A DNA stretch of 64,000 bases from Catajapyx aquilonaris. Lineage: Eukaryota. The notes under the pieces are model-generated. The model saw only the letters and a program-made list of their open reading frames with translations, made no database searches and was not told where the DNA came from. The position numbers and the translations under genes were made by a program. This document shows positions 21,143 to 45,900 of the stretch, in pieces; the stretch's first letter is position 1, and every line of letters begins with the position of its first letter. Where the stretch lies: contig JYFJ02000539.1 in NCBI GenBank assembly GCA_000934665.2, positions 1-64,000 of the forward strand. The letters are read 5' to 3'.

Positions 21143-21228
21143 CCAATCAGAAGGCAGGCGTGCCCGCCCGAATGGGATTATCATAATCGGCATCCAATAT
21201 TGATAATCATAAACTGTGGACCTGCGCA
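21143..21228 (+). promoter_or_regulatory. Candidate deeply conserved Sall promoter/5'-leader element
   Basis: CCAATCAG...ATAATCGGCATCCAATATTGATAATCATAAACTGTGGACCTGCGCA is an AT-rich block inside the GC island, about 175-260 nt before the ATG. It resembles the vertebrate SALL promoter/leader as recalled from memory; not aligned computationally. Confidence 0.6.
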
Positions 21229-21401
21229 CTAGGCGTTGGGGGGCCGGGCCGACATGTGGATAATTTAGGAAAATTTTTTGCTCGCTTCTGCTCCACCCTG
21301 CAGCAAGCACCAGTCCTCCCCATTTGCCGAGGAGGGTTGTCATTGCCGGACGGTCCTGCGGAGGAACAGTGCCGAAGATCGCGGGGGGCAGCTGCGGCAG
21401 G

Positions 21402-21477
21402 ATGTCGAGGCGGAAGCAGGCGCATCCCAGCCGACACCTGGACGCCGAGGATGGGTTGGTCAGCTCCTTGCAAAATG
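21402..21477 (+). CDS. sal: First coding exon of a spalt/Sal-like (SALL) C2H2 zinc-finger repressor; N-terminal NuRD-binding motif (partial CDS)
   Basis: AGG-ATG TCG AGG CGG AAG CAG GCG CAT CCC AGC CGA CAC CTG... translates as MSRRKQAHPSRHLDAEDGLVSSLQN+G. It is followed directly by the consensus donor ATG|GTGAGT (phase 1). MSRRKQxxP at residue 1 is shared by the SALL, BCL11, FOG/ZFPM and ZNF423/521 families. The short phase-1 first exon and the upstream element favour Sall. The zinc-finger exons are not in the window. Confidence 0.8.
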
Positions 21478-24400: not shown

Positions 24401-27400
24401 ATGACATCACCTAACCTCAAGTCTACATAAGTCTTGTAAATGTAAGTTTACGGCTCTACAATCGGACAGGCATAGCCTATTACGTCAGGTTACATAATAT
24501 TACTATAGCAAAATATTATTCCCACTGTGCAATGTTTTATCATCAAAAAATTTGCACTAATCTGTGGTTCCATGTACTGTAACCACTTTTTTTTTCTACT
24601 TCTAGAACCACAGTAATCTTACCAAACCCTGCCGGCTGAATATTATCAAAGATGTAAATGTGATTTTTTTTATCTACCCCCAAAAGTGGGAGGGATGAGA
24701 CATGCTCATCTGATTCGCCCGTTTATTATGATTGATATGAGGGGATAATTTTGGTGCAGAAGGTAGTGATTTCATGGGCTGATTTGGGTGCCATTAGGCC
24801 AAGTTCGAGACGCTGGGGCATGTTCTGGACCCCCATCTCATTGCTGTCATTCCCTTGCTCAAATTACATCTGTGATATGCCTGGGAAATCGGTCCACTGT
24901 GCACGTGTACATACCTCCCCAAAAAATTAAGAAGAAAAAAAAATCACATGACCCGTCGCATCTTTCCTGTACCTGCAACATCCCTTCGAGAATATTTTGA
25001 GGGTACACACACGCACATTTCGAAGCAGACATCCAATTTATGAGCGGTACAACTTCCCAAAAGTCAGGTTAGCTTAGCCATCACCACTTCACTTTTTTTT
25101 ATATACACCGTACCGAGCCTGACAGGTCGAACCCGCGGGGTTCCACACGCCCATGCGCGTGTGAAAACCCGCGCGTGTGCACTCAAAAAACACCCACCAA
25201 CAATAACCCATCCAGTTCCACAACTAATCTGGCACATTTCAACCACTCTTCACCAACCTGTCATTTTGTAACGTGCGACAATGTTTTTACGTCTGGGGAA
25301 AAACTATGAGGAAGCGAAGGAATTGTTGTGAGAAATATGTTACATCGTTTCACACGCATGTTAAGGTCAAGACGACGTGCACGGCAGTGCACATGTAAGT
25401 TATAATTATGTGACAAAAGTTGTGTCATTGCGTCTGAATATTTGTATATGTCCACTGCGTGATGTTCCGGAAATGTTCTGCAAGTGTCAGGTACATTATT
25501 TACAGATAATTTGAGGCTAATTTAGGTATACCGGATGGGCAGTAATTATTAGGTTCGTCGCATAATTTGCGATTTTATTTACTTGTTATTATTATTACAA
25601 TGTAATAAGATATACAATCCAGGTCTGACACAGGGGACTCACAGTGCTGAATTCATCTTTAGTAATGACCATTGCGAAAGTTCTCAGAGGTCTTTCGCCT
25701 CGCGGTTCACTTATAACACACACGTGGCGCAAAACAAATCCGGATCACCTTGATGAGATGCAGAGTCGAACTACGTAAGTCCTCGATATACCTACGTATA
25801 CTTTTTTCCGCCTTTGTGAGTTCGAACTGTACATTTTCAAAAACAGATCCTTTGTTCGCAAGGAAATGCGAATGTCAAATTGTAGCATGAACATAAAATC
25901 ATAAAATAATAAATCATGCCACAACTTTTTATTCCCTTCGCTGACTACCATTTTTTTCTCCAAGCTGCAACAATAACACAAACAGGAATATTTCGCATGT
26001 GGTAATGTCAAGGATGGAATATAACCGGAAGTCATAAAAGGAAGGGGGGGGGGGGGATTTGACTATCTTTCTTCACCCCGTGCGCATGTTAATAGCACAC
26101 CTGCCTGGAAAATCCTGGCGTAGATTAATATGCGTGACGCATGATTTGTGACCCCCCATAATTTCTCATATTCTCACTATGGAAAGTAAATTTATGCTCA
26201 CCTGAAACAAACATTGCTTAAAATATTCTGACTCGCCTATATTTTATGTGGCTCTTAAAATTTTGCAATATCCATATTGACCATATATGAATAGAGCAAA
26301 ATTTGACAAGCCTGGCCATATTGATCCGGGGGATATGAATGCTTGCCCGCATTGGATTTCATCCGGAAACATCGCGACCTGACTGACAATTGTTTGACAA
26401 AATTCCATTACCCCTTCCGACCAACATGGCGGCGTGCCAACAAGAGCATGTAGGCCCCAAAAGCTCGTGGTCCCCAAAATTTGACTGCTGCTGGGAGGGA
26501 AAAATCTGGTGACGGAAGACAACCGGTTGACAGAGATTGGAAAAGCGGTGTGCATATATTGTTAGGCCAACGACTGCTTCTGGAGCATCAATTTCCACAT
26601 ATCTCTATACCAGAGCTCACACACACATGATCCACGTGCTGAAATTCGAGCCGGGTCATGTTGCAACATAATGAAGTTTGCAAACTCCAGGCATTAACGG
26701 CTGTGTTATTCTCTAGTCGCGGAACAGTAGGAGAAACAAACAAGGCGATACATTATCATACCTGTGCGACCCCAACTAACCAGCAAAGGTCGCTGCCACA
26801 GATGCTGCAAAAAAAGAGGTGGCCTAGTGTTTACAAAAATTGAGTATGAGAGTGGTCCAAGTAATTTTCGCATAAATTTCGTACATACACAGGGTGGTCC
26901 AATGCGCACCTTGCTGTTTTTCAGTAGGCACTAGTTGTTGCAAGTAACTGCTATTTTCTCACGAGTTGCCTGAAGAGACAATATGGCGTCTAATTTTACA
27001 ATTAGAATTGTGTGCGTCAAAGCCTGCAATTTTCACAAGAGACAACGCCATTTGTCCACACAGAAGGCGCATATTAGAAAACAGCTAAATAAGCAACCCG
27101 TATAGTCGTTGCTATAGTCACAAATTATCACCACGAAACCCAAGTTTGCCTGAAAATATTGGTGCCCTGTCGATGTCGCAGCAAGGCTACAAAACTGCCA
27201 CTTCGTATCATCCTCTAGTTGAAACCCCCTCCCCGGTATATATACGTATAGCATTTGAGCGGTGGTACAGTATATATGCTCAAAGTTACTCCCCTTTCAT
27301 CCTATGTCTTTGGGGCTGCTCCCAATTTGCATCGCACTCGGCTGGCGTTGCCCTGGAAGGCGAGACGCCACTTGAAAGCTATGATTCCGCCCAGCAAGTA

Positions 27401-29874
27401 ATCCCATATTTGCAATAAAAGGCTAACACGCTCCGGCGTTTCTGGAGTTATAGCCCCATGTTATAATATCATCAAGTTTCAGGCTGAGCGAACCAACCAT
27501 GTGGGAAGAGTAGAACATCAAAGCGCGGGGTGGCTCTGGCTGGGAATATGAATGCCTCGGGTGATTCCCCTATTTGTTCGCCGTCACAGGAGGGGTTGTG
27601 ATATTGAAGTAATAACTACTTCAAGTGCGAAGGGTTAAGCAGCAGAAACATGCAGTTTGAGGGTTGGAGTGGGGCTGGAGGAACTAATCTCGGCTGTTTG
27701 TGGATAGGAAACTGGGGGAAAAGGGATAGGGGCTTGAGGCCGATCTGGTGATGCAGCCGCTGCCACGATGCTGGGGGGCGCCTGGATGGGGCGGCCATCT
27801 TGGATCCGGTGTCTATAGCCACTCACTGGGTGTCCGGATGGGTTGCAAAATTAAATCAATTTGGAAAATTGGTCTAGTTGCGTCTGCGAGGGAGTCAGAA
27901 GTGATTTGGGGACAATTGGGCTGATATTGTAGCTGCTGTGCTGGTTGGTGGAAGAAGCGCACAATTTGTGGAGGAGGAAACAGACAGTGTTGTAGCCGTC
28001 AGAGAAAATACTTGCGTGATGCTCAGAATAAGTTTTCACACTATAGGCTATGCTTCATTAGTATTGATACAATCTCTATTTAAAACTGCATCTCAGCATA
28101 ATTCAGATTACGGTCCCAAATTACAACAGGCGAAGACATGAGTATTTCATACTGCCATTGTCTAGGAAAGATGAATGAGGCTTGTAAAACAAACATCAGT
28201 ATAATTATGTCCGGGGACTCTTACATTTCTAAGGTCCGTCACAAACTAGATGTATTTTGCAGCTTTGTGTCCTGAAATAGGTGACAGAAAATACGAGTAC
28301 GTCTCCGTTGCTGTCGTAGCGAGTTTTCCCGGTGCACTGAATAATTTTGGCGCATTGCATTTCGAGTCGGTTGTTTTCCTGAAATAAATATAGACCACGA
28401 TGCAGCGATATGAAGATTGATCGATGTCACAGTACCATACTTTACATGGGGACAGCCCACTGGGCAAACTCTTTTGTTTCCTTTACATAGGGTTAATAAT
28501 CGGTTTCCTCCCAGTTGGCAGAGCACTTTCTGAAGCAGACGCGGTAATTGCGAAGGAAATATCCGGAACGCATACTATACGTAACCAACAACAAAATAGT
28601 GAATAACCTGTTCTCAGACACGATATCGCCACGCAAACGTATCATCATTTTCCATCGTCAATAGTCAAATTATTATTATAGTTATTAGGGGGATGACACA
28701 TGTCTTCTAGTTCAATGCAGCGAGTATTACTCGTTGCGTGGAATAATTACACCTCATGTCATTCTTGTCTGCCATCAATTCCACCCCTCTAATCCATTTT
28801 TTAGTGCGACGGAAGCCATGATTTCTGCAGGGAGCCGTTTCACATTTATTCTTATTACATCAGGTGATACTGATATCACCCAGTCGTTAATCAAACCCGC
28901 GTATCACCCCCCCACAAAAAAAAAGGTTTCTCCTGCGACGTTGGTGCTAGGACTTCTATTCTCGGGGCCGGTTTCGCACGCCAAGTGTTAGATTCCACGA
29001 TAAGAAAACCCAAAGGATGTGATATTATTGAAAATCAAGAGTTTGCGGAAGGCTTAATGACTGCGCCGGAAAATTTTACATGCCACCCTAATTAATGCCT
29101 GCAATCGCGTGCTCGCACCAGCGACAAAATTATACCATCGGGCAATTAATCCCGTTATGTTTAGAAGGGGTTAATCGTCCCCCCCATTCTCTACCAAACC
29201 ATTTCTAACCAAGTTTCGTGGCCTCGACAAGTCGGTACGGCTCGAATAAAATTCCATCTTGCACCGGTCGAATTATCATAATTTCTAGAAACCCTCTTTT
29301 TTTACAAAGAAAAAAATACTAAACAGTGTGTTTACATTTAATTTATAATGTGAGGTGAAGCTGTGGCTGAACAAAATTTAAAATTAACACCCCCTGGACA
29401 AATTGCAAGACGGTTTGCCAAATAACACAAGGGGTCCGATAATTGTCACAGCGGCAGGTCTGGTGCCTGGACACCAAGTGAATAAATGCTGGTCCCCATC
29501 AGCATATTTTTGGGAGGCGTAAATAAAAGAGAGAGGGGGGAGGAGGGGGGGGGGAGGAGAAAAGGGCATGAAAGAAGATGGAAAGAGTGGTGTTTCGGGT
29601 GAGGAGACGTCTTGGCTGGTGGCCACCCAACGTGTCCAACATGGCAGGGCAAACGGGGTCTCTTCGTCGCTCGCACCGTCAACCATACAATTGACGCACT
29701 GCCTACCACCTATCCATCCCACGTCCTCCGACGCATCTGACCCCCACAGGCTTCCGAGCTAATAAAGTCATAAGTGACGAGGTCACATATCTTGGTAAAC
29801 ATGTGCGTCATGTATTTGAAATGTCTGCTCTTCATTGGAAATATCTTATAATTTATTCCCGCTAATTAGTAATA

Positions 29875-30182
29875 TATTTTAAAAAATTCCAGTGAAAATT
29901 TCACACCAAAAATGAGCAATTTTAACTAAAACTCAAATTACTCGAAAGAAGAGTAAGAATGAGTGGGGACACTACTCTACAAATTGAGTAGTTTTTAGCT
30001 CGAATTTGAGTGGTCATTTCGCTCAAATTGAGCGGAAAATCCACTCAATTTGAGTGAAATGATTGAAAATATTTCATCGAAATCGAGTGATTTCCACTGA
30101 AAAATATTGGAAGTCAAATCAACTAATCAAGTAGGAAACTCACTCAAATCGAGTGGAAAAACAGTCGAAATTTTTTAGAGTG
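29875..30182. mobile_element. Decayed MITE-like non-autonomous DNA element with internal palindromic subrepeats
   Basis: The right end AATTTTTTAGAGTG is the reverse complement of CACTCTAAAAAATT. The left end TATTTTAAAAAATT matches it with three C>T changes. The interior repeats (A/G)CTCAAAT / ATTTGAGT-type motifs, e.g. GCTCAAATTGAGC, CACTCAATTTGAGTG and CACTCAAATCGAGTG. Confidence 0.55.
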
Positions 30183-33100
30183 ATAAATCCATCCACTCTT
30201 TGGATGACCTCTAGACTTCCATCTCTCCTTGCCCTCTCACCCCTGCTCGAAAAGGACAACCTGCTAGGGGGTTATGCAGATTTAGCCCCCCCCCCCCCCN
30301 GTCAGCTGTCGCCTAAGATGGGAGGAGTTGCGTCAAGGGTTTGTCAACGTTGAGTTGTCATGGGAAGTGCGGTCGGAGGGCTGCTTGCTACCTGTAACAC
30401 AGCCAAGACGGGCTCCGATGAATTTTGTAAGAACCTGGGGGTCTTCAGATGTTCACTCACACTATATACGATACACCAAACAGTATTCTAGCGATACAAA
30501 TTGTAACCCTCAGCACAAAAAAAAAAACTCTCGAAAACCAAGACTTGGATTTCAACTCTGACTTTCCCTAAGGCTAACGAAGAAGACAAGCGACCGAAAC
30601 ACTTGCCGAAAATCGACCCCGAGGCTCTGAGAGAAACTGGTGTAAAAAAATGCAAAAGAAAAGAAAAAAAATGCTGGCGAATTGCCGTATCTTGTTAGGA
30701 GCGCTTAGCTACTCACCTTTTCAGTTTCACCGCCGTGTTCTGATTACCGAAAACTAGGCCTAAGTCATTTATCTAGAATTGAAGTATTTCCGCTGGGTGG
30801 GCCTCCCTCTTTAGATTTTTCGTTAACAAACGTACTCTTTTGCTTATTTTAATGTGACTTGCTGCACAACTTGGTGGACTTGAGGATGAAATTTATCTCA
30901 ACATGCAGAAAAACCGCTGGAATTTATAATACCCGTAAATCTCCTCATGATGGTCCATGCAAAGTGGGAGTGGTAAGCACGAAAAAGCGGCTCAGAGGAA
31001 ACATCTGGTTGGGTAAGAAAGGGCCCATATTTTTCCACTTCCTTAGTGAGATTCGTACACTTGGAGAGTTATGTGTGCGATGCTTTTAAGCAGGTTTTGT
31101 AGCTTTTATAGACTACACTGGTTTTTGAAAAATGCGCGGACATTGTTGTACTATGCGTATTAGGCCAGAGATGATGGAAATGTGCAAACACTGTACATTC
31201 ACAAACAAAAGCATTGCGGGTTGTCAGGAATGCAATCAGTATTACAGTTATACAAACTTGCTAGTTGGTGTCATTATTGCATCATCGGCCTAGTTTATAT
31301 GTCATAACATTGCTCCATTGTTTTGCTGAGGTATGACCATAAACTCTTCATTAGCATTATATCAGCCTGTTATAAAACATAAGTCAGCTTACGAGGAAGT
31401 AATTTCTGAAACAAGTTATATACAAATGTCACACTAGCCTATGTTATGGTGATGGGCATACACGATGTATCTGTGATATTATTATGCTCTGAAGGTTAAA
31501 TGACGCAAAAATTATGCGATATCTCCCATACCAATTACACTTACAAACTTATAAAACAATTAATTTGTTTTCTGAAACGACCAAACTCATTATCCAAGTC
31601 ATAAAGGAAAACATAGGAACATAATAGTCTGGATAACATGTTGCTGTTTGTCAAACTGTTTTGTTACAAAGAATCCTTGTCCTCTGTAACAACAGAGCAG
31701 AAATTCAATCGCAGGATATGGCATTTTGGCACCTGTCATGTGCCGTAGTTATGAAAAAGTGGCATACCAGTTGCACGTATTAGCCCGGAACATTTCTAAA
31801 CCGTATCCTCATAAAAGCGAACCCCACTCTAGAGACCTCGGAGTTATAAGAACCGTGTTGATGTAGCGTACCGGGCTCGGGAGTGTTCCAAAAAAATGCA
31901 ATGTAGTCATTGGCCCTCTGATTTTATATTGCGCCCCAGGGGTTTGGAATTTTTTCTGTAATTTTTTGAGCTTTGCACTCTAACTCTGGTACCGTATGAT
32001 ACTCCCCTGTTTTTGCACCAGTTGATCCCCACAGTAGCATAAAACGGTAGGTAGAGTGCGAGTGTGGATATGGCCGCTAAAAATAACAGAAAGGGGCCGG
32101 GAGTCTAGCGCATTGTGTTGCGTAGCAGGAATGGCATTCAAAAAAAAAAAGAACGAAAAAAAATTCAAGTTACTCCAACCTCTCAACCTGCAATCAAACT
32201 CTCAGGTGGTAATCAAAGTATCCCGTTCAAACTATGGACAGAAATTAAAACAAATCACGGGATCGACCTGGCCACACGCGCATAAAAAACTCTTCAATTT
32301 TATTGGAAAAAACATTTTCCCTTTCCAGACCAAACCATAACTTCATGAATATTAGACCAATGTTATGTGTGGCGCAATTAGTGCGATCAGGATTGCATTC
32401 ATGCGCATTAATATTGCATACTCTAAATGGCTGTCATGCAAAATTGCAGTTCCCTCCGATATTTTCTGGAAAGCATATGCATGCAGTTTAAACAACGCGC
32501 AATTTGCCTCCCTCCATACGCGTATAGGCTATTATTATGACCGTATATTTATGCAATTTATAGCTCAAAATGACGGGCAGGACTGTGTTCAATAGGACGA
32601 CTGATGAGACCTAAAAAAAAAGCCCCATGTAATGAATTTTTTTTCCATGGATGCTACCCCTTATCTGACGAGACATTTCGGCCATTTTCTGGTTCCCGTA
32701 GATTTTTTTGTCCTGACTCAAGGCGGTATTTTTATGTAGCGACAACAGACATAACAGGTGTAGGTTACTCCCTCAAATAAATTACAGTCCCTGTCTAATT
32801 GTAATGGCCCTACAGTGCATTGTTTCTCAAACTATGTACTTGTCAGGTAATGTTAAATGAGTCCCCTTTTAAAATTGGACAGTAATGCGGGTTACGTTGA
32901 CTTAACAGTCACTGGTTGAAACCAATGCACGCACATTTTTTGGGGGGGATGTATGACGCACAGTTTTCGCAATAATTACATAGTGGCAAAGTGTTGAGAA
33001 GACACTTTTTTATATATACAAAGACCCGAACATAGCCACACCCTATGGCTGGAAAAAAACCGTTTTTTAAAAACTTTTTTACCCTTCTTTTTAGACACCC

Positions 33101-34441
33101 CTTGGCTGCCACTGCCATGACTTTGCCGCTGGGAAACTTGTGATGTAACACCGACAAGTGTCAGATGGGTGACTCGATAAACGTGCAAGATAGCGCAACC
33201 CAGCGACTCACATTTTTTATGCCGTGTATTTTGGAAGCGAGGCATCGTTTCTATCTGTTGGCAAGTGATAGAAACTCAACTATTGCCAAAAAGATGTCGC
33301 TGACTTTTTTGCGGTAAATAATAGGCAGGGGATGACATTCTTCAAGCCAGGTCGGGATCTACGCGTCGGATTTGACCCGCCCATTTGTGTGTGTGTGTGT
33401 GCACCGCCCCCACCACTACAGGGTGACTAATGGAAAGAACACACGCTTTTTAATTTGCTGTCGTGGACTGGTTGGTGCAGCACGCTTAACCCATCTTTTT
33501 AGCCAGATTTTTCAAGCTGTTTACGCGCACAGATAATGTTTATTTATGCGCTCGCCAGTTTTAAAAGTTCATTCCCTCTAGTCCCCATCCTTGGGGCCAA
33601 TAGACCAGCGTCTAATATTAGTCGTCCGCGTGCCAGATACGTTTTTAATATCCCTAATGTGCCTCTCCTGTCGCATTCAAAAAAAACGGTGGCCCGTTTG
33701 TCGTAACATAAAAGATGCCGAATTTTGATACGTTGCTGAAAAGCAGCTACCGCAGCGGAAAATGAGGCATGGACAACACGAAGGGGAAGTGGCAGAGGGT
33801 GCCAAAAGGGCCTTACAATGAATATCATGGGGGGGAAAAAAATAGAAGGGAGTGAGCCTGTGTTTCCGCCCCTCTTGTCTATACTCTTCACAACAAAAGG
33901 CACCTTCTATACTCAAAAAGTGCATGTGTGTTAGAAAATGCATTCCCCCCCTACTTTTCACAACCTCTCCCTTAAAAAGTTACAAGGTGAGTGGACACGC
34001 AGTATATTTCACGGTTCGGTGATTTCAAGGGGGTTGAAAATTACCTGATGTTCTCGAGCCCACAGCTTTTTGGGGAAGCCAATTTGTATTTTCATGGGTA
34101 GATGTAAAGTTCAGATTGGTTTGATTAGACGCCTTTTTAGACACGGTGTAACATCCCGTGTTAATTAATTTCAATCGTTTTATCAGCAGGTATATATACA
34201 CCTGCTTGTCCTTTGGCACGACCCCCATCTAATGACCTGTAGGTCGGACCCAAGTCCTAGCCGCATTGGGAGAGGTTCATTCAAAGTAGCCCCTCTCTCT
34301 GGTAGAAAAGTAAAGTGTGTGTCACCCAAACCTGTGATCCGCTCGAGTAGCCGGCTCTGGCGGTCTTTTCAGAGTTTCACGCCTTGGCAGTCCGAAAGGA
34401 GCCGCCTCACTTTAGATCTGAACCTCCCCCCCCCCCTCCTT

Positions 34442-35261
34442 ACCCTGCCTCACAACCTCTACGGTATACCTTCTCTTTTTGGACCCCCTCAGGGATATAC
34501 CAAGTTCACTTTGAGGAAGGAGTGATGGAAGGTGGCACCTTCTCTTCAAACCCTCACAATTCTGGCCAATTCGTCACCTTCACTGTAAATTATGCGACTC
34601 GTTTTCAAAATATCTGGAGCCACCACACAAAAATTTTCTAGGCTCTTTTATGCTACCAGCTGCAACATAAAATGAGCTGCATGTATGTGTGCAAAAGGCT
34701 TCGTGAGTCGTAAATCTCAAGACCCATACGAATCCCATAAAATAGGGTGAAAATGTTTGCATGATGAATCCTACACCCCTCCCCCTCCCACACCCATTCG
34801 CGCAAAATATACAACTTGATTTAAACACATATTATGAGAAGGTATTGCANNNNNACCCTGCCTCACAACCTCTACGGTATACCTTCTCTTTTTGGACCCC
34901 CTCAGGGATATACCAAGTTCACTTTGAGGAAGGAGTGATGGAAGGTGGCACCTTCTCTTCAAACCCTCACAATTCTGGCCAATTCGTCACCTTCACTGTA
35001 AATTATGCGACTCGTTTTCAAAATATCTGGAGCCACCACACAAAAATTTTTAGGCTCTTTTATGCTACCAGCTGCAACATAAAATGAGCTGCATGTATGT
35101 GTGCAAAAGGTTTCGTGAGTCGTAAATCTCAAGACCCATACGAATCCCATAAAATAGGGTGAAAATGTTTGCATGATGAATCCTACACCCCTCCCCCTCC
35201 CACACCCATTCGCGCAAAATATACAACTTGATTTAAACACATATTATGAGAAGGTATTGCA
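34442..35261. repeat. ~408-bp direct duplication joined by 5 N (probable assembly or haplotype artefact)
   Basis: 34442-34849 and 34855-35261 are almost identical, with a 1-nt indel (aattttCtagg) and one substitution (aaggCttcg/aaggTttcg) seen. Only the gap 34850-34854 separates them, and the first copy starts just after a poly-C tract. Confidence 0.9.
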
Positions 35262-35599
35262 CACCATATGGGCCTAGATAAGGAGTGTGAAAAGGCCCTT
35301 CAAGTTAATTTCTTTTAGTAAAAGCGGACCCTAGATTATTATGAAGCGACTCGTCCTTTTGTGTCAACCACAGTCCCCAAATGTCAGTACAGATGGGCCA
35401 ACCGACCCTTCCTTTTTTTTTTACATACGACCCAACGGAAAAAGAGTGTCATTTTTGTTCCCGTGTCAAGAACGGTATGAAGTATGGCCGTTGGATTAAT
35501 ATAAACGATTTGATGGGCGGCGCAGATTAATACCCAGCTGAAGCACCGAGAGGGGACATTTGGAAAAGTTGTCTCCATTTCTAGGGGTCCACCTGGTGT

Positions 35600-35632
<33 letters not shown>

Positions 35633-38600
35633 TCCAAAGCTCTGAACCCCCAAAAAGCCAGCGTGCATTTCAATGCGCAACCCCCCCTGGGTCTCAAAAG
35701 CCCCTTTTCTACTTGCATTATGCGGTGATCCTGTAACTTCACGCAAGACATGTCGCAAACGGACAAAACAAAACCGCGCTGTACAAACAAGCCGGGGACA
35801 TTGTCGCTTTTTGGGAGTTTGTCCGCGTCTCTTGTCTTCCTCCATGTTACCCTCCCGACCTTCTTTTTCCTCGGGTTCCTCCAATGCTGCCAACCGTGCG
35901 TGTCCTCATAAAGGACCTCAAATTGTGGCATTTTGAGGTGGGGTGGAGGGGGGGGGATGGGACAGATGATGAGCTTTGTTGTCCTTGGCCCGGGAGATGC
36001 GATTCTGACAAGCCCCCACGGATATAGCGCCATGGTAAAATTGATGGCCGGGCACGTTGATTCTGATGGCGCTTGCCCGGGATGCTTATTTGCCCAATAC
36101 ATATGAACAGGAATTGATGCATGAAATCAATGCGATGCAGCAGCAGGAGTGAAGTTTGATGACCTCACATATTGAACTTGTCGTATGTTGTGGTCGCGAG
36201 CGGCATAAAGAGCGGTCGGGACTCGCAAATAACCTTTTGTGAGCTTACCTCCTCCCACCCGACTCCATCACTGCATAATGTTTTGGTCAATATTGCTTTC
36301 CTCTCTCCCCCTCGTATGTTGGCATCGCTGACACTGTGTACGTGACTGCTGTGTTTTCCAGTTCAAATCGCACGTGCAATAAACCCCGATCGCACCTGCC
36401 GGATTTGTTCCAGTACTAAGAGGATACAGTGGCGACGCCCTACTGCAGATCCGGTAACCACCCCAAATAAGCGAATGAAGACGTGAGGATGTTTGGAGTT
36501 GGGCCGATTAACTTCATAATCTTCTGCGTCTTTGCATCAGCACGGCTTACAGTTTGATTGTTAATGGGCTGGTACTAACAAAAAAAAATAGTCATTGTCC
36601 GGATCTTTGACCCTCTGTTTGGCAAACACGCGTGCTGTACCCCGGCCCCCGGAAGGTCAGCCCTTAACGGCCAATGACCGCCTACTTAATCATTTACACT
36701 GCAGGGATATTTACATGGGCTGATAATCGCCATGGCCAAAAAGTCACTTGGCCTCAATTTTCCAGTCGGCTAGTTTGTCCATTAAAATTGGTCCAAGTAC
36801 ACCAAAATGATCGCTAATTGGTTCAATTGCAGCTCGTTGCTCAGTCGTGCGGCGCAGTCACCTGCGATATGCCACAAGTAAACCAGTTAGGTTCTTCAAA
36901 TAATCCTACTAATTCGTGCCCAATTATCAGGATGTCATTAGAAAAAAAAGCCCAAACTACCATTGCTCGACATATGCCTCGCATACTTTTTTTTTGGTCG
37001 TGTGTATACCCCTGCATCCCCCTCACGTTTGCTCAATTTGGGCCCCCCTGTGTGCCACTGTGTGTGACCTCGGAGGTCAGCACCTCGCCCCAGGAATCCC
37101 ACCAACCACCTCATTTGCCTGGGTCTACCCTGCAATAGACCGATAGAGCTCCACGATTAACACTTGCTTCACCTGGCCACGATGGCGTGTAACTGGGGGT
37201 CGTGACGCGGGATGACAACACTAATGGACGTCATCGGGGATGATTTGTTGGGATGCTTATTATCATAATGGGCAGGGTAGGCCAGATGCGGTAGGGCAGT
37301 AATGTGGAAGGGACAGGAAAACAATACTGTGAAGGTGGTTACATTATGTACACAAAACTCTTTTTTTGTAGGGGGGGAGTTTCCTCCTGTCATTGTCGAG
37401 TCAGGAAGTGTAATTAGTCATCCAGCATTGTCATGCTTTTTGGAGGGTGGTCATCAGGTGGAGTAATGGCATGTAACCCATGCAAGATGACAGGGGTGGA
37501 GGTTCACACTCGTTTGCTCTAGTTGACTGATGATCAAAATGGAAGCACTTTATGCGCAGGAAATTGACTTGCATGTAGTCATTTCCGCTGTATCAATGGG
37601 GGAAAGAAAATTTCATTCAGCCACGTAGTAACACCGGTAACGTCAGGTGTGGTTCAGAATCCTAGATAAGACCTTCGGGTCGAGTCTCTTCCAATTAGGC
37701 GCCATCCATCCGAGGTTTTACCTCCATTATTTACTACGCCGGTAGATTGGTCCAGCCCATACCTGGCCAAAGTCACCCAGGTACGGAAGTCCTTTTTCAG
37801 CCCCCCCGTACGATGCACAGGAACATCATCGATACTTTGAAACCACTCTCCTAGATAATAACTCCACCCGATCCCAAATGGGCCTGAGTGGACATGAAGC
37901 GTGAAGGATATGAACATTTTGACTCGGTTCTTGCATCGTGATGGGCAGCGCTAAATGGAAGTGCGGGGCCCCCGTCACTTGCCCCTGATGGCTAATTTGA
38001 CCTCGCCGTTGGCTCCTGAGGGCTCTCGCCTTTTTTTTGGTGTGTGTACCAACCAATGGTGCCCACGACCATCAGACTCGTGTTGTCTGTCCTCCCGCTT
38101 TCATGATGCTGCCCTCAGCTCTTCAAGGATTTTTTAATGCCGTCTTTTGTTCCCACTTGTTAGATGTTGCTAAATACTGCCCATTTTGTGCAAGAAAGAA
38201 ATAATTTTACACGCCTTTTGGCGAATTGTTTAAAACTGTACCGTTTGGCAGATATTTGCTTGCTTGCCGATGTAGCCAATCAGATTCGCTGGCCTGGCGT
38301 GTATGACATGACAAGTGAAATATGCGCCAGACAGCGCAGTAATCAGTGTCGGATGCGCCATCTGTGAACCGGGGGAAATTACACGTGACGGCCTAAAAAA
38401 CTATTATTGGGAGAAAATTAAATTGTGCCAGTATGCAGTACCGTATTGATGTCCTTCTACCATCTTCTTCAGCTTTTCTCCCCCAGTCTCCAGACCCGAA
38501 ACAATAAAATCACCATTAGTATCCCCATTGGATAAATATCTGGTCACCCCCCAAAAGAACTGCCTGTCCGTCTGGGAATGTTATTGGGAGGGATCTGGCA

Positions 38601-41600
38601 GGCCTGCCAATCTTAGAAGCAGGCAAGAATGCGTCCAAGGATAACAATGGTGCAGCCCCCTATATAAACCCCACTCAAATAAACCTCAAAATGATGCACC
38701 GCCTGAATTACTAAACAATGTCGCGGATTACGTCACAACCCAGCCATAATGTATCGGGCTGCAACAAACCGTGTCTTTCCCCAGCAGTTGTCATTCTTGA
38801 GGAGCACCCTAATCTTCCGAAGCCCAAGAAGAGTGACACCCTTTAGATAAACAGTGGACGTGCTTGTGCTGCTTTATGGAAGGCCTGGGGCCATGTCGGT
38901 TGGGGCTGGCCAAGTTTGGGGACAAGGATCGTATAACCCCCCNNNNNNCCACCAAATATATATCTCCCCCCCTTTTCCTTTGTTAGGGCCTGTGGCCATG
39001 TTGCAGTATCGGTTGTATGTCCAAATGCTCCGGTTTTTCGTGCTTCAATTAATTATCCATCTTTTCCCATATCTGGTCCATTGGCTTTGTCGGCTGGTAA
39101 ATCTTAAGGGGGCATCGAATGATGGAAGAGGAGTTACCACCTGTTAGTTTAGGGACGGACGATTAAAAACGCTCAGAGAAAACAGGTTGAGCGGCTGAAT
39201 TGAAAAGTAAATTACAGGGTTGCGAACACCTCGAAATGCTTCAACCTTTCTTGAAAGGAGGGACAGGAAGTAAATGAGTAATATCGTGGAATGGAATTTA
39301 TGCAACATTAGAACCGAAGCGGGTCGCCCCGGAAAATGAGTTTACTGACAGAATAGGGTGGGAAAAAAGAAACGAAACTAATGTTGCCCTGACCGTTACT
39401 CCGAATTTTGTGGATCCTTAAACAACATCCATTTCTTTTCTTTTTTGAGGGTCCCCCCCGGCTTTCAAAAAAAGAATTATTTGAAAGCTAGTAATTATGT
39501 TAACTAGGCCGCATTTTTCTTTTGTTGCTGCGAAATAGATGACTTCATCTTGTGTTATATTGTTCTAAAAAAATAATAGCCACTTTTCGTATTGTCATCT
39601 GGCGGATGGATTGTACACTAAGCGATATTAATGGCGTCCCCACGTGGATATTTTCTAGCCGAACAGCAAATTAGCATCGTCGTTACAATCGCAAGTCCGA
39701 CAAGCCCTGTCCATTGTAGTCAAGTGTAGTGCGAATTGGCAGCGACGGCCCCTGGTGTGTCCCTACCACCTTCTGGCAAGCGAATTGAATTAAGGCGACC
39801 TAGGGAAGAGCGCCCTTTTGTGCCCCTAACCTATCCGGGCGCCCGCTAATAAGTCGACCATATGGTCCAATTTGCAAAAAGATCCGGTGCCTGCAAGCCA
39901 CCCCTCTTTCCAAAACACACACACTCACTTCTCACACACACACACACAGCAGCATCGGCGATCGTTATCCTCATGGCCATGGGTTGGCTTTCCCCAAACC
40001 TCATCTTGGCCGCCAATGATCGCATGCGTGCCAGCCCTTTTGCCTACCCCTACCAGCCCCCCCTTATCTGTGCAAATATCAATCAACGCCATATTTCCAA
40101 TGAATATGCGGACAATCTCGTCTGCAAACCCGGGGCTTCTTGTTACTGAACAAATACGGGCGCTGGTTGGCAGTTATGAGATCTTTCGAGGTGAGAAGAT
40201 TGGATCCGACAATAAAAGCCGACTGTTGACATTGCAAATATGAAATTCCACCGGGGACTCCCGGGCGCCCTACCAAATAAGATAAATAATACTTCCCCCC
40301 CCCCCTCCCCCCCGGTATATACGGGTAGTTCAAGTTAAAAGATATTGGTTTTCCGGGCACGCATGACAGAAAACCTTCCCGCTAGAAGCCGGGAGTTTTC
40401 ATTTTGTCTATGATGGTCAGTCGCTTTTATTACTTCAACGTGTGTGTATCCAGAACCTCTCCTCCCCCATACCCCACTCTTCCCCCTTTATGAAAGTGCA
40501 TTTTATTGCGGCCGAATCAGGAACAAAATTCTCAGGGGTGACTTTTCCATCAGGCCATATTGTGCTGCGGTCATGCCTTGCTCTTGACTGCGGAATGGAT
40601 TTTTTTGCCCTACTATACAGGGGTACCACTGGTCCTCATTTTTTACAACCCCCATTCAGCAGATGTAAATTTTAGTACGCAAAAAGGTAAATTCGCCTGA
40701 ACATGACTTAATTTTAGCTGCAAATATTTTGACACGACTGGTAGCAATATATCAAAATTTCTTGAGCACACACTTGGAAAGGTTGGCAGCATATCTTTTC
40801 AGAGTGATCTGAGTTTGTGACAGTTCGAACAATAGTAGTCGACAGCTTGAGAAGTATATAGGCGTACGTGGGTGCCCTTCTTCTTTTACCTTTTTTTTTT
40901 ATCCGGGTCGCCCCCTAAAAATGCGAATAAAATCGAGACCAAAATAGGATAAAAGCAGTTCCGGGCCTTGGGGTTTGTGAGTGAGATGGAAGGTATATAG
41001 GGGTGGGGTAGGGGAGGTAGGGGTGGTGCTGCTGCATCTCAAAGGAGATGATGGTCCACGGGGGGATAGATGGATGGATAGATCTGCTTCTGCTGTGGAT
41101 GCAGTGTCTCAAGGGAGTCGAAGCCCATGTCTTGTCCTCATTTTTTTTTTCCTCACAAGATTAGCTCCTCCTTTTTGCTTGAAAGCTATAAAGGCTATAC
41201 GTCGCGTCACTTATCGTCGAAGATGGGGTGGGGGTTAGTCACTTGTGAAAATAACATACGCTGCTCAGGGAATTGGAAAGGAAATGGCGATGTCAATAAG
41301 CCCTACAGAAATATTGGCCGTATCAGGATACCTTACCGGATCCGGATCAACACCTTTATTTTTAAAAAATCTATATTGAATCTTTTCCGGCCTACTAATT
41401 GAACAGCAAACGCCCCCTCCTCAATTATCCTCACTTGCGCCCATTTGTCCCGCTTAATTCATAATTGCTAGCCTGTCCCTGGCAGATTTTCATCAATAAT
41501 AGGTGTGAATCGCGGGGGTGGAAAATCATAGCCGAGGGCCTTGTAATATGGCATGGCGTGACTGCCACCCGCCAGTTGTTTCACACTTCGTAATTCAAAA

Positions 41601-42821
41601 AAGCGGTAGGAGTTGGAGGGGGTATAGTGGGGGGGGCAAAACGTCAAGAACTTTGCGTGATCCCGAATGATCACTGCATAAATCTGATGGCCAGGATTTA
41701 ACTCTGACCCCCGGTTGCAAAAGGCACATACACACACACGTACTGCACATGCATATGAAAAAAGGAGGAGGAGCCATAAAGCTCCCTAGGCCGCGCTAGC
41801 AGCCATGAATTTCAATTCATTAGCACGGACTCGCAACCAATCCCATTCGCTGTTGATGCCCGCTCAGATTACATGCAACAACGGCCTTCCACCGGTGCTG
41901 ACCCCACCTTCGCAAACATATGCTCCCCATCAGCCAGTTTGCAAGATTATACCCGCCTTTTGTTCGCACTCGGGTGATACAATTTTGTCCCATAGAATGC
42001 AAATGCTTACAATATATTATGCACCCGTAATATAAAATTATGCATCTAACTGTAAGTAATTTTATTCACACTGCACCAGCTTTACATATGTTGAAGTATT
42101 ATGTGGCAATGAAAAATCATACATTGCAGCATACATAAGCAGCAAAAATGATTTAAATGGTGCATAATTTTACATTATGGGTGCATCATTTTAGGGATTT
42201 GTATATATTTTCGCGCACTTTGAACAGTTCATCTCGGTGCTAGAGGGATATCCCGGAAGGGGGTTGGGGGGACCTGATATACTGCGTGTCAAGCAAGGAT
42301 TTATCGGTCCGTCCGGACACGTCAAAGGAATGGAATGACAAGCAGGAATGAATGAGTCGGCCTTGATACATGGCAAGGAGATGGGTAGTCTCCGAGACTT
42401 GTGGTTTGGAAAATTGCGTGTGTCTCAGCTGCAGTGGGACATGTTCGGATCGGGTTTCCATTAATATGCCGTACAAGTGTTCCCTTATGACGCGACGGTG
42501 GCGGTGAGCATGCGAATTTTCATATGGCAAATGGCCGAGTCCTATCCCATTACGAACTCAAATGCATGTGTATATATCGTGATCTCCCCATTCAAAGGCG
42601 GCCGATTTCGTGACGTACATGACGTGCCTTCAACTGACAACCTCTACTTCAACCTGTGCGGTTTTATTTCCTGCAATACCCCCCTTGCTCCCCCGCCATA
42701 CAAATGTCATTTTGTAAAACTTTTTATGCAAAAAAAGGGGTGCTTGAAATGTTTATTTGGCAATGAAGTTATGGCTCGTCACGTCATACAAATTCGTATC
42801 GTGACTCAAATCATACACTTT

Positions 42822-42855
42822 GCTTAACTATTATCCCTCTTCTTTTCAGGTAAGT
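42822..42855 (+). other. Recursive splice site (ratchet point): juxtaposed 3' and 5' splice sites
   Basis: GCTTAAC (branch-point-like)-TATTA-TCCCTCTTCTTTTC (14 consecutive pyrimidines)-AG|GTAAGT. AG is at 42848-42849 and GT at 42850-42851. There is no other AG between 42769 and 42847. It lies on the same strand as exon 1. Confidence 0.8.
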
Positions 42856-42917
42856 CAACCAGACAACGTTGACAGATACGCATTTACCTGGCAGAAAAAA
42901 CACACTGATTTTGGCTC
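42850..42917 (+). other. Cryptic 68-nt RS-exon downstream of the ratchet point (poison exon if included)
   Basis: A second donor, CTC|GTAAGT, starts at 42918. Spliced to exon 1 the exon reads G/GT AAG TCA ACC AGA CAA CGT TGA, with the stop at 42870-42872. Confidence 0.62.
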
Positions 42918-45900
42918 GTAAGTACAACATGCGGCAGTTTGTTAAATCGGGAACATGAATGATATAAATCATTGTTATGTAATTGTATATTCGAACACGA
43001 TAAGCCTGAACTGCATGTTACTGATTTGTTATTCACTTTCTGTGAGTTCAATTTGCAACATATGTCGATGGATAATGTTCAATTCATATTGTGACACATT
43101 TTGACATTACTTGTATGGACACTCACATGCTCTTTAATCAGCTGGTTTTTGGGACTGTTGTGAAATTTTAATTTGTAACACATAATAAATTTGTTTACCC
43201 GAAGTCCAATAAAATACCATAATACTTATACTGGACGCCATGTTGTATACACAATGGAATGTTACAACTAAGAGATATTTCTGGAATGACCTCGTTCGGA
43301 TAGCGGGAAAATCTGGGATTTTCCCTACAGCAGAGGACACCTTCTCAAAGAAAAATCTCGGTTGAGAAACCCTTCTCTGATAAGATGTGGCCACCACCAA
43401 TATTCTTCTCATGAGAACGGATGAAGAGGTCAGTCAGTGACTCGGAGCTAGAAATCGGTGCGTTATGTTGCAAACGGGGCCGGTCTGGTGACCTCGGATT
43501 AATCACACGCAAGCGCATATATTAGCCCAACGGGATAGAGAGCTTTGCAATTATACGTTGGCAAAACTTTGAGAATCTTCTCATTTACGTCGGAAGACAC
43601 TGAAGGGCTCTCGTCAGAAAACGCACAAATCCATTCCTGTCAGAAAAATGAGAGCTCAGGTTACGCCACCGGTTCTTTGCTGAACTCTATAATATTGAGT
43701 GGTTCTTGGCTCAATTTGATTGATGTTACTAGATGTCCAATTATGTGCATAATTCAATCAATTATGGGCAAGTAATGCTTCTACCGGCACAGCTTTTTCC
43801 TTGAACAAAAATTGGGCAGATCACATTTGGAGTTTAAATTGTCAATATTTGCTGTGTCGCTGCTTCAAAGTGTGCCAAAAATTTTCAGACATTGTTGCTG
43901 TTATTTTTGCCACATTTCACATCTAAAATTACCCGCTTACTTTGGCGCAGTCAGATAGTATTTTTATGCAGCCGGACATTCCTGCCAGCATTGCGATATT
44001 TAACCACAATATGCATATGAACTAGCTGCACATTCAGGTGACCAGAAGTCGATTAGTTTCCTGCCAAGTCGTACATGGCACCAACAGACATGCCTTTCGG
44101 AAATGTCAAGAAATTGGACTTATGCGCTTTCTAAGTCGAACCATTCTCGTTGCACATGCGTGATTGCCTCGGCTCCAAACGTGAAAGTGCCTTATCTCCA
44201 AGGCGAAGTCGACAAGATAATTCCGGAAAAATCGAATTTCATAACACCTCCAACATGTCAAGTCGGCCAAGACTTCACGCTGTTCCAGTCATTTTTGGTA
44301 AGGCGGAATGGACTGAAACACGGGGGCGTGCATCGTTTGCTGTCGGCCCGTGCACTTATCAAAGGGCTAACAGGGTGCAAATTAAATAGCGCTAATTATG
44401 TAAGCATCGTGTGCGATCGCTTCGTGGCCGGGAAAATTATTTTAAGATGATGGATCGCACATTGTTCTCGCTGACACATTAAAGCCATGTTCCTGAGTCC
44501 CCTGATAGATCTTGACAATTTAATTTTGGTCCGGTTTGGGAAGCGATGACTGCGCCGGCACGCGATGCATTCTTGTAATACTACATGTAACGTCGTCTGA
44601 TCTCCAGAAGAAAAAGAATTATCTGGCGAGGTCGAGAGATGTCTTGAAATTCGCCCCAGTTTGAATAGTTCTTCAATTGAAATCAAACATTTCTTCCAAT
44701 ACACGCAATCTATAACTTATTGAAGCAATTTTTCCGTCAATTTCAGTAAAATATTTAAGAAAGTCGACAAAAAATACTTGCAAAAATAATTCAGCGAGGC
44801 TTACATAACATGATGTCCTGTGCATTTACCATAAGCTGTAATGTTACTGATTTACCATTAAAAATATTCTGATACAAGTTCAGGTAACATGCGCTTGCTC
44901 CTTAAAATTAAGCCATCATTTTTATGACGCAAAATAAAGTCATATAACGTGTAGGAGCGGGGAAGGGTGTCTTAACGATCCAATTTCACGGAAAATGTAA
45001 TGATTGTGGGTGGAGACCACGTTTGGATCATTCACTCCGGCGGATATACAAGCGCTATGAAATGTCTCCACATGATGGATTTAGACCATGCAATCTGGTC
45101 ACGAACTCCAGAAAAATCTGTGTATATCAACTTATAACATCAGACAGCACACGGAAGCAGGGAAAAAAATATTATCGTTTTGTAACTACAAAACTCGGAC
45201 ACATTTGGCATCATAGCGAGTCATTCTGACAAACTTCACGTTACAGCAATTACTTGGAACAAAAAAAAAGAGTTGGAAATTGTAGCAAGGTAGATTTGCT
45301 CTCAACATGGGCGGGCACTAGAGTCTAAATAGCCTGTATTACTGCCTTTCCCACTCGGTAATACCGTTTTCTCTCTCTGAAAGTAAAAAAAAAAGGTCTA
45401 ACGTTCTTAGTGCCGGTATTAACGTTAGCTATTTTCCTTTGGCATCGTGAAACTATTACACACGGCGGGAAAAGGTTTATAATTTGAATTACTGCCAGAT
45501 CAAATATCCGGTGGGGAAGTCGGGCGCTTTAGCGACAAAAATCCGCACCCGATATTAGAATTTTCCAAATCGATCATCAAAACATGGCCCGACCATAGTC
45601 AAATGGCTATAATGGAAGCTGCTAGCGACAACTATGGATATTCTCTTGCATATATCCAGCCCTTTTTTTTCATCTTTGTCATACCAAATGGAGTGGCATT
45701 GCTGGACTATTATAAGAGCTATTTTTCACGCATTCACAAATCCAATTAGCTGCATTACACATTCCTGACTGTAGATGCCACCTCATGCCATCCTCAATTA
45801 AAACTGCATGAAACCTATATACAAAAATACCAGCGACAGAAGTAGCCGCCAGCAATTTTTTTTTGTATCCAACAAACAAATACTGCAGCATACAATATCA

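What the first reader, a model, noticed from the sequence alone, without database searches (positions are those of the whole stretch)
42769..42923. Recursive-splicing ratchet point with cryptic RS-exon in the giant first intron of a spalt-like gene
Seen: a strong acceptor (79-nt AG-free zone, CTTAAC, 14 pyrimidines, CAG) abuts a perfect donor GTAAGT with no exon between them. It is on the sense strand, 21,372 nt downstream of the exon-1 donor, and a second GTAAGT lies 68 nt further on. Established: this AG|GT plus downstream cryptic donor layout is the architecture of recursive splice sites in long introns of Drosophila developmental genes (e.g. Ubx) and of vertebrate RS-exons. Inference: the intron is removed stepwise. 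This genome does not look like a model organism, so recursive splicing here may be undescribed. A CAGGTAAGT alone could arise by chance in 42 kb, but together with the long pyrimidine tract and AG exclusion that is very unlikely.
Basis: partly seen in the sequence, partly recalled or inferred. Interest (0 to 1): 0.85.

Follow-up and report, generated by a model that had tools for sequence, protein, structure and literature searches.

The report
Likely recursive splice site, unproven
In the middle of a very long first intron of a developmental zinc-finger gene lies a textbook "ratchet point", where the intron is probably cut out in two steps, but no RNA data or related genomes could be reached to show that it is used.

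Summary
A candidate branch site CTTAAC, a 14-nt pyrimidine run (18 of 20 Y) and CAG abut GTAAGT at 42849|42850. This lies on the sense strand, 21,372 nt after the exon-1 donor, and a second GTAAGT follows 68 nt later.

It is more than chance. It is the only CAGGTAAGT on either strand of the window and the best of 404 AGGT sites. None of 400 Markov-simulated introns reached it.

It meets every sequence-level criterion published for Drosophila-type ratchet points:
- TT at -5/-6, and a candidate branch A at -23.
- A long first intron and a segment of typical size.
- A short, out-of-frame cryptic exon with an early stop.
- A regenerated donor that pairs better with U1 than the cryptic exon's donor does.

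Use of the site could not be tested. No genome is held, no sequencing run was listed, and no related sequence was found.
- "Spalt-like" is unproven, because the MSRRKQ start is shared with ZNF423, BCL11 and FOG.
- Sense-strand enrichment of such sites in sea urchin, bee, beetle and mosquito was published in 2009.

A predicted hairpin buries the junction.

Verdict: a probable new member of a known kind, of modest interest.

The parts
21402..21477 (+). Coding part of exon 1: ATG plus 25 codons plus 1 nt (MSRRKQAHPSRHLDAEDGLVSSLQN + G). This is the NuRD-motif-type start of a zinc-finger transcription factor, and the intron that follows is phase 1.
   Evidence: Sequence; translation. An MSRRKQ start is described for SALL, ZNF423 and BCL11 proteins in passages read.
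21478..21485 (+). Exon-1 5' splice site, G|GTGAGTAC
   Evidence: The predicted duplex with the U1 5' end is -10.6 kcal/mol.
21478..42849 (+). First recursive segment of intron 1 (21,372 nt), predicted to be removed as the first lariat
   Evidence: Coordinates. No zinc-finger or Pfam-recognisable ORF lies in it. The size falls within the 2,596-63,580 nt range of Drosophila recursive segments (mean 17,953 nt).
42770..42847 (+). AG-free zone upstream of the acceptor (79 nt by the script's count)
   Evidence: Only 1.7% of 6,834 AGs have a zone this long.
42823..42828 (+). Candidate branch-point motif CTTAAC, with the branch A at 42827 (position -23)
   Evidence: by motif only. Mapped Drosophila ratchet-point branch points lie mostly at -36 to -21. 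It is largely unpaired in the predicted ensemble.
42834..42847 (+). Pyrimidine tract, a 14-nt uninterrupted run with TT at -5/-6
   Evidence: TT at -5/-6 is present in 196 of 197 Drosophila ratchet points.
42847..42855 (+). Ratchet point CAG|GTAAGT: the acceptor AG ends at 42849 and the regenerated donor starts at 42850
   Evidence: It is the only CAGGTAAGT in the window on either strand. The U1 duplex is -12.1 kcal/mol in the genomic context and -9.1 after ligation to exon 1.
42850..42917 (+). Predicted cryptic RS-exon, 68 nt. It is not a multiple of 3 and puts a TGA seven codons after exon 1 if included.
   Evidence: [quoted passage not shown]
42918..42925 (+). RS-exon 5' splice site, CTC|GTAAGTAC, which would define the RS-exon and then lose the competition with the ratchet-point donor
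   Evidence: The U1 duplex is -7.1 kcal/mol, weaker than the regenerated donor.
42840..42896 (+). Imperfect inverted repeat, predicted as an 18-bp RNA hairpin that buries the junction. CAGGUAAG pairs with UUUACCUG, and GUCAAC pairs with GUUGAC.
   Evidence: Energy is -15.6 kcal/mol, z = -3.18, and 0 of 200 shuffles fold as well; I chose the window after seeing the fold.

Best explanation
The site at 42849|42850 is a recursive splice site (ratchet point) in the first intron of a gene for an MSRRKQ-type zinc-finger transcription factor. The intron is at least 42.5 kb long.

Proposed mechanism; every step is inferred from sequence and none was observed:
1. As the intron is transcribed, U2AF and U2 recognise the CTTAAC branch site, the 14-nt pyrimidine tract and the CAG. 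U1 at the GTAAGT 68 nt downstream (42918) helps define a short cryptic RS-exon.
2. Exon 1 is spliced to 42850, which removes the first 21,372 nt as a lariat.
3. The new junction ...AATG|GTAAGT is itself a 5' splice site. It pairs better with U1 than the RS-exon's own donor does.
4. The new donor is therefore used for the second step, to the real exon 2 beyond the window. The 68-nt RS-exon is removed with the rest of the intron and leaves no trace in the mRNA.
5. If the downstream donor wins instead, the 68-nt exon shifts the frame and stops translation after 32 codons. Inclusion would give a decay-prone or null transcript.
For: Shown by sequence:
- The acceptor and donor are juxtaposed on the sense strand.
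- This is the only CAGGTAAGT in 128 kb of both strands.
- Pyrimidine content is 18 of 20 and the AG-free zone is 79 nt. Only 2 of 6,834 AGs match both.
- It is the best of 404 AGGT sites.
- None of 400 simulated introns reached 18/20 pyrimidines before AGGTRAGT, and 5 of 400 reached 16/20.
- The region is single-copy in the window.

Agreement with published criteria:
- TT at -5/-6, as in 196 of 197 fly ratchet points.
- A candidate branch A at -23, inside the -36 to -21 range.
- A host intron of at least 42.5 kb. Fly recursive introns span 11.3-132.7 kb with a mean of 45 kb, and 63% of fly introns over 40 kb have a high-confidence site.
- It is a first intron, and the site is at or before the midpoint.
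- A segment of 21.4 kb, against a fly mean of 18.0 +/- 9.0 kb.
- A short, out-of-frame cryptic exon with a premature stop.
- The regenerated donor is stronger than the RS-exon donor: -9.1 against -7.1 kcal/mol with the U1 5' end. That is the condition for skipping in the competition model.

Prior from the literature: RP-sites are 4 to over 20 times commoner on the sense strand than on the antisense strand of long introns in five invertebrates, including sea urchin. The window's CpG observed/expected ratio of 0.78 argues for a non-vertebrate genome (the vertebrate range is recalled).
Against: - There is no direct evidence of use.
- Conservation is the second pillar of every published catalogue, and it could not be examined.
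- Exon 2 is not in the window. The intron's end, the true position of the site within it, and the absence of a small unrecognised exon between 21478 and 42849 all rest on negative ORF and domain scans.
- The organism is unknown, so the invertebrate priors may not apply.
- The junction is predicted to sit inside an 18-bp hairpin. Unpaired probability at -3..+8 is at most 0.07 before exon-1 ligation and still low after it. That would be expected to hinder U1 and U2AF binding rather than help it.
- The two competing donors both read GTAAGT and differ by only 2 kcal/mol in a crude model, so partial inclusion of the RS-exon is possible.
- The site was picked out by a reader scanning many windows, so a 1-in-hundreds chance event is not excluded by the window statistics alone.
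Confidence: 0.6

Rival explanations
1. The site marks a regulated cassette or 'poison' exon. Positions 42850-42917 form a genuine 68-nt alternative exon that is included in a stable share of transcripts to shut the gene down, through a frameshift and a stop after 32 codons. The GTAAGT at its start is not used for re-splicing.
For: The acceptor is strong, and a good donor lies 68 nt downstream. Inclusion gives a TGA seven codons after exon 1. The two donors are close in predicted U1 pairing, -9.1 against -7.1 kcal/mol. Expressed RS-exons and poison exons are documented.
Against: If only the acceptor were selected, a perfect GTAAGT as the first six bases of the exon would be a roughly 1-in-4,096 coincidence. 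Where tested, an exon that begins with a strong donor is re-spliced unless that donor is weakened or repressed. The exon has no ATG and no coding continuity.
Confidence: 0.15
2. The site is a chance or non-functional pseudo-site. The motif is not used by the spliceosome, for example because the hairpin hides it, and it has no role in processing this intron.
For: No evidence of use or conservation could be obtained. The junction is almost fully paired in the predicted ensemble. Background RP-site matches do occur, at about 0.07-0.12 per 100 kb on antisense strands. The site was selected by eye from a large scan.
Against: The joint rarity argues against it: 2 of 6,834 AGs for the acceptor features alone and 0 of 400 simulated introns for the combined site. 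The site is on the sense strand and carries TT at -5/-6, a branch motif at the right distance and a downstream donor at a typical RS-exon distance.
Confidence: 0.15
3. CAG|GTAAGT is the donor of an alternative, non-coding first exon. That exon would be driven by an internal promoter just upstream and would give an N-terminally truncated protein lacking the MSRRKQ motif.
For: The densest cluster of CRE/AP-1-like motifs in the window lies directly upstream: 4 of the window's 38 matches fall within 250 nt, at 42611, 42620, 42781 and 42802. SALL2 is reported to have alternative first exons, only one of which carries the MSRRKQ motif. The donor in its genomic context is perfect, at -12.1 kcal/mol with U1.
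Against: This reading leaves the acceptor features unexplained (18/20 pyrimidines, the 79-nt AG-free zone and the branch motif), although together they are a 3-in-10,000 property of AGs here. Both ATGs in the would-be exon are followed by in-frame stops before the donor (read from the sequence; the open frame ends at 42827). The host gene is not shown to be a Sall gene.
Confidence: 0.07

Closest known systems
Drosophila zero-nucleotide ratchet points with cryptic RS-exons (Ubx, kuz, Bx, luna; Burnette 2005, Duff 2015, Joseph 2018/2021, Pai 2018)
   Same: The consensus is (Y)nNCAG|GTAAGT with an unusually strong pyrimidine tract and TT at -5/-6. The site is on the sense strand of a first intron longer than 40 kb in a gene for a developmental regulator. 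The segment is about 20 kb. A short, out-of-frame cryptic exon is closed by a second donor, and the regenerated donor pairs better with U1 than the downstream one.
   Different: The genome is unknown and non-model. There is no junction read, lariat, saw-tooth or conservation evidence, all of which define the published catalogues. The junction is predicted to be buried in a hairpin; I did not look for this feature in the fly literature.
Vertebrate RS-exons in long neuronal genes (Sibley 2015; Blazquez 2018)
   Same: Recursive splicing is initiated by definition of an RS-exon. The outcome is set by competition between the regenerated 5' splice site and the RS-exon's own donor, and inclusion gives a premature stop.
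   Different: Vertebrate long introns show little sense-strand enrichment of the motif, with ratios of 0.9-1.5. This genome's CpG observed/expected ratio of 0.78 is not vertebrate-like (the vertebrate value is recalled). Repression by the exon junction complex cannot be assessed here.
Computationally predicted RP-sites in long introns of other invertebrates (Shepard 2009: sea urchin, mosquito, bee, beetle; locust NPF1 site, Wang 2022)
   Same: These are motif-level predictions on the sense strand of a long intron in a non-Drosophila invertebrate. The evidential status is the same as here.
   Different: Those were genome-wide enrichment statistics, or in locust a U2AF65 pull-down. Here a single site is analysed in detail, with its RS-exon, reading frame, donor competition and local structure.

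Membership tests
Recursive splice site / ratchet point (Drosophila type) | Juxtaposed 3' and 5' splice-site consensus, (Y)nNCAG|GTAAGT, on the sense strand of the host intron | tested here: met
   a perfect 9-mer, 18/20 pyrimidines, and the same strand as exon 1.
Recursive splice site / ratchet point (Drosophila type) | TT at positions -5 and -6 of the acceptor (196 of 197 fly ratchet points) | tested here: met
   Sequence ...cttttcag|; criterion.
Recursive splice site / ratchet point (Drosophila type) | Host intron is long (fly range 11.3-132.7 kb) and segment size is typical (2.6-63.6 kb) | tested here: met
   The intron is at least 42,523 nt and the segment is 21,372 nt. The intron's end is outside the window. 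Criteria.
Recursive splice site / ratchet point (Drosophila type) | Short cryptic RS-exon closed by a downstream donor, generally out of frame | tested here: met
   68 nt up to the GTAAGT at 42918, with a frameshift and a TGA after 7 codons. Criterion.
Recursive splice site / ratchet point (Drosophila type) | Regenerated ratchet-point donor is stronger than the RS-exon donor (donor competition) | tested here: met
   -9.1 against -7.1 kcal/mol for the duplex with the U1 5' end. This is a crude nearest-neighbour model; no NNSPLICE or MaxEnt score was available.
Recursive splice site / ratchet point (Drosophila type) | Branch point about 21-36 nt upstream | tested here: inconclusive
   A CTTAAC motif places an A at -23. 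No lariat data exist to show that it is used.
Recursive splice site / ratchet point (Drosophila type) | Sequence conservation peaking at the AG|GT in related species | not testable with these tools
   No genome is held. There were no look-alikes in earlier windows and no metagenome match.
Recursive splice site / ratchet point (Drosophila type) | Exon-to-ratchet-point junction reads, recursive lariats and saw-tooth coverage in total or nascent RNA | not testable with these tools
   No sequencing run could be obtained for read mapping.
Sall / spalt zinc-finger family (host gene) | N-terminal MSRRKQ-type (NuRD-recruiting) motif | tested here: met
   MSRRKQAHPSRH.... The same start is described for ZNF423 and BCL11 proteins, so it does not discriminate.
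Sall / spalt zinc-finger family (host gene) | Characteristic C2H2 double zinc fingers in a large exon 2 | not testable with these tools
   The window has no zinc-finger ORF and no Pfam hit in 105 ORFs of at least 90 aa. Exon-1 searches found nothing.

The most novel reading that the evidence does not exclude
This is a working ratchet point in an animal lineage where recursive splicing has never been shown experimentally, and an intramolecular 'U1-mimic' hairpin gates its use. UUUACCUGGCAG, inside the RS-exon, pairs with the CAG|GUAAG junction. Stepwise versus one-step removal of the intron, or skipping versus poison-exon inclusion, would then be a regulated decision that tunes the output of a developmental transcription factor. 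The adjacent CRE/AP-1-like motif cluster would be part of the same intronic control module.
Probability: 0.08. Interest if true: 0.6.

Novelty: new member of a known kind. Interest (0 to 1): 0.3.

Why it matters
If the site is used, it adds a clean example of recursive splicing outside flies and vertebrates, in the first intron of a gene for a developmental transcription factor. Its knock-out phenotype is predictable: loss of the 42850 donor should force in a 68-nt frameshifting exon. That result would support the view that ratchet points are a general invertebrate answer to long introns. The view is suggested by motif statistics from 2009, but in the papers listed here it has been tested by RNA evidence almost only in Drosophila. 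It would not change how recursive splicing is understood.

Tried and rejected
- Whole-genome look-up: no genome is held for this window.
- Sequencing runs for window 40000-46000, kind RNA: no RNA holder was listed and none could be listed. This is no evidence either way.
- Earlier findings by place, sequence, relatives and words: nothing relevant. The eight notes returned concern phage and archaeal introns and do not bear on this site.
- Rfam at gathering thresholds over the whole window: 0 matches. The reverse complement of the site resembles the U1 5' end, but it is not a U1 gene.
- Tandem repeats in 40000-46000: none.
- Exact-pattern scans of metagenome contigs with a 22-mer across the junction and a 26-mer of exon 1: 0 matches each.
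- Exon-1 peptide searches to name the gene or organism:
The reference I gave was also one base out of frame.
  - The 71-aa stop-to-donor frame, region 32-71, against longer proteins: 4 word-sharing candidates and none scored.
  - A 30-aa query against 1.84 billion representatives: 0 hits at E <= 0.001.
- Pfam on all 105 stop-to-stop ORFs of at least 90 aa: 0 families.
- A zinc-finger regular expression in six frames: only isolated spurious matches.
- The idea that exon-1 ligation unmasks the ratchet-point donor from the hairpin is rejected. The donor stays mostly paired in the predicted post-ligation ensemble.
- A paper search combining 'recursive splicing' with names of invertebrate groups was badly posed and returned unrelated papers.
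- Other AG|GT sites in the intron with at least 14/20 pyrimidines (23810, 28863, 31330, 56310, 60451) all have poor donors. I did not pursue them.
Full report
**What is in the sequence**

On the + strand, exon 1 of a gene opens at ATG 21402. It reads MSRRKQAHPSRHLDAEDGLVSSLQN plus one base and ends at a standard donor, AATG|GTGAGT, after 21477. At 42849|42850, 21,372 nt further on the same strand, the sequence reads ttgCTTAACtattatccctcttcttttCAG|GTAAGTcaacc.

- The last upstream AG is at 42768-42769, so the AG-free zone is 79 nt.
- The uninterrupted pyrimidine run is 14 nt (42834-42847), and 18 of the 20 nt before the AG are pyrimidines.
- CTTAAC puts a candidate branch A at 42827, position -23.
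- A second GTAAGT starts at 42918, 68 nt after the first.

**Is it more than chance?**

- CAGGTAAGT occurs once on the + strand and never on the - strand of the 64-kb window.
- Among 6,834 AG dinucleotides on both strands, 0.3% have at least 18/20 upstream pyrimidines and 1.7% have an AG-free zone of at least 79 nt. Only 2 have both.
- Among 404 AGGT sites (181 on +, 223 on -), this one has the highest pyrimidine count and the only full GTAAGT.
- I simulated 400 introns of 42,510 nt with a second-order Markov model. An AGGTRAGT preceded by at least 14/20 pyrimidines turned up in 31, at least 16/20 in 5, and at least 18/20 in none.
- The surrounding 900 nt are single-copy in the window and hold no tandem repeat. 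A local repeat therefore does not explain the motif. Whether it is repeated elsewhere in the genome could not be checked, because no genome is held.

A caveat applies. The site was selected by a reader who scanned many windows, so the window statistics need a prior. Shepard et al. 2009 (passages and Table 2 read) give one. RP-sites per 100 kb on the sense against the antisense strand of long introns were:
- 0.540 against 0.066 in sea urchin
- 2.196 against 0.101 in fruit fly
- 1.029 against 0 in mosquito
- 0.484 against 0.122 in bee
- 0.807 against 0.101 in beetle

In vertebrates the ratio was 0.9-1.5. In invertebrates, then, most sense-strand matches are not chance.

**Context**

- No zinc-finger pattern beyond isolated spurious matches occurs in any frame.
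- None of 105 stop-to-stop ORFs of at least 90 aa has a Pfam match, and Rfam finds nothing.
- Exon 2 is therefore not in the window. The intron is at least 42,523 nt long, and its end is unknown.
- The CpG observed/expected ratio is 0.78 throughout. By my recollection of vertebrate values this is not vertebrate-like. The organism could not be named.

**The host gene**

The only coding evidence is the 25-codon exon. The MSRRKQ start is the repression motif of SALL proteins (passage in PMC7937961). It is also described as the conserved start of vertebrate and invertebrate ZNF423 (passages in 10.1101/2020.03.09.984518). In addition it appears in BCL11 and RBBP4-binding-peptide papers, which I saw only in the search listing. 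Searches with the exon-1 peptide gave nothing. 'Spalt-like' is plausible but unproven. If the gene were ZNF423-like, short early coding exons would be expected, and such exons could escape my ORF scans.

**Comparison with published criteria**

From the Duff et al. preprint, whole text read:
- 196 of 197 have TT at -5/-6.
- Branch points lie mostly at -36 to -21.
- Recursive introns span 11,341-132,736 bp, with a mean of 45,164 bp.
- Segments span 2,596-63,580 bp, with a mean of 17,953 bp.

From Pai et al. 2018, passages read:
- 63% of fly introns over 40 kb have a high-confidence site.
- Sites tend to lie near intron midpoints.
- Sites are enriched in first introns and in genes for morphogenesis and development.

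From Joseph and Lai 2021, passages read, and Blazquez et al. 2018, passages read:
- Recursive splicing needs a short cryptic RS-exon of about 50 nt, closed by its own donor.
- It is skipped when the regenerated donor out-competes the downstream one.

The present site meets each sequence-level criterion:
- TT at -5/-6.
- A candidate branch A at -23.
- A first intron of at least 42.5 kb.
- A 21.4-kb segment.
- A 68-nt RS-exon that shifts the frame and gives MSRRKQ...LQNGKSTRQR-stop.
- A regenerated donor, AUG|GUAAGU, that pairs with the U1 5' end at -9.1 kcal/mol, against -7.1 for the RS-exon donor CUC|GUAAGU. This is a crude nearest-neighbour model, and the U1 motif was recalled.

A 2026 preprint (abstract read) links human recursive splicing to first introns with CG-rich flanks at the upstream donor. 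Here the exon-1 kilobase has 54% GC against 43-45% elsewhere, which is consistent but weak.

**What could not be tested**

Use and conservation could not be tested. No sequencing run could be obtained, so no reads were mapped. No related sequence was found in earlier windows or in metagenome contigs. These are the two lines of evidence on which all published catalogues rest.

**A complication: the hairpin**

The junction lies in an imperfect inverted repeat. In RNA, UUCU / UCAGGUAA / GUCAAC (42840-42859) pairs with GUUGAC / UUACCUGG / AGAA (42868-42896). That makes 18 bp in all, with CAGGUAAG opposite UUUACCUG, a sequence that necessarily resembles the U1 5' end.

- The 65-nt stretch folds at -15.6 kcal/mol, z = -3.18, and 0 of 200 shuffles fold as well. 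I chose that window after seeing the fold, and the 141-nt context is unremarkable, z = 0.22.
- In the predicted ensemble, positions -3 to +8 of the junction are unpaired with probability of at most 0.07 before splicing. After ligation to exon 1 they remain mostly paired.
- My idea that the first step unmasks the donor is therefore not supported.
- If the hairpin forms in vivo, it should hinder recognition rather than help it. I count it as mild evidence against efficient use, or as a hint of regulation.
- The same repeat creates ctgccag|GTAAAT on the minus strand at 42888.

**Rival explanations**

- A plain cassette or poison exon would leave the perfect GTAAGT at its first six bases unexplained.
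- An alternative first exon ending at 42849 is suggested by the densest CRE/AP-1-like motif cluster of the window just upstream: 4 of 38 matches within 250 nt. This would leave the acceptor features unexplained.
- Chance is disfavoured.
- The recursive reading is the only one that uses all the features.

I put it at 0.6, mainly because nothing shows the site is used and the lineage is unknown.

**Novelty**

Recursive splicing is well described in Drosophila, human and mouse, and it has been examined in lungfish (listing of 40 of 474 papers; abstract). Motif enrichment in other invertebrates is in print, and a predicted site was studied in locust. I saw no paper on recursive splicing of a Sall/ZNF423-type gene among the 25 papers listed or the 40 listed. 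I ran no search aimed at that question, and I did not open supplementary tables of ratchet-point host genes.

This is a probable new member of a known kind. The interest is modest, and it would rise somewhat if the hairpin proved to gate use of the site.

Noticed in passing
window 42840-42896 (+), and minus strand at 42888: An imperfect inverted repeat forms a predicted 18-bp hairpin that buries the CAG|GUAAGU junction. The downstream arm, UUUACCUGGCAG, mimics the U1 5' end. The same repeat makes a second AG|GT (ctgccag|GTAAAT) on the minus strand, 39 nt away.
   Followed up: partly
window 42611-42808: This is the densest cluster of CRE/AP-1-like motifs in the window: TGACGT at 42611 and 42620, ACGTCA at 42781 and TGACTCA at 42802. 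That is 4 of the window's 38 such motifs within 250 nt, directly upstream of the site and partly inside its AG-free zone. It may be an intronic enhancer or an internal promoter.
   Followed up: partly
window 42778-42805: A small inverted repeat, GTCACG...CGTGAC, carries two of those motifs. The 65-nt stretch 42772-42836 folds at -10.1 kcal/mol, z = -2.0 (9 of 200 shuffles fold as well).
   Followed up: no
window 1-64000: None of 105 ORFs of at least 90 aa has a Pfam match, including transposon domains, and there is no Rfam match. The gene sits in a gene-desert-like region with 21 kb of upstream sequence free of recognisable genes.
   Followed up: partly
window 21000-21230: A C-rich and (CT)n low-complexity tract lies at 21000-21075. 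It is followed by a CCAAT-type box (gaCCAATcag at about 21143-21152) roughly 250 nt upstream of the ATG. GC content rises to 54% in 21000-22000. A 254-codon open frame on the minus strand (21074-21838) overlaps exon 1; it has no Pfam match and may be only an effect of the local base composition.
   Followed up: no
window 433; 9308-9311; 30300; 34850-34854; 38943-38948; 48770: Six short runs of N (18 bases in all) mark small unresolved spots in the assembly. None is near the finding.
   Followed up: no
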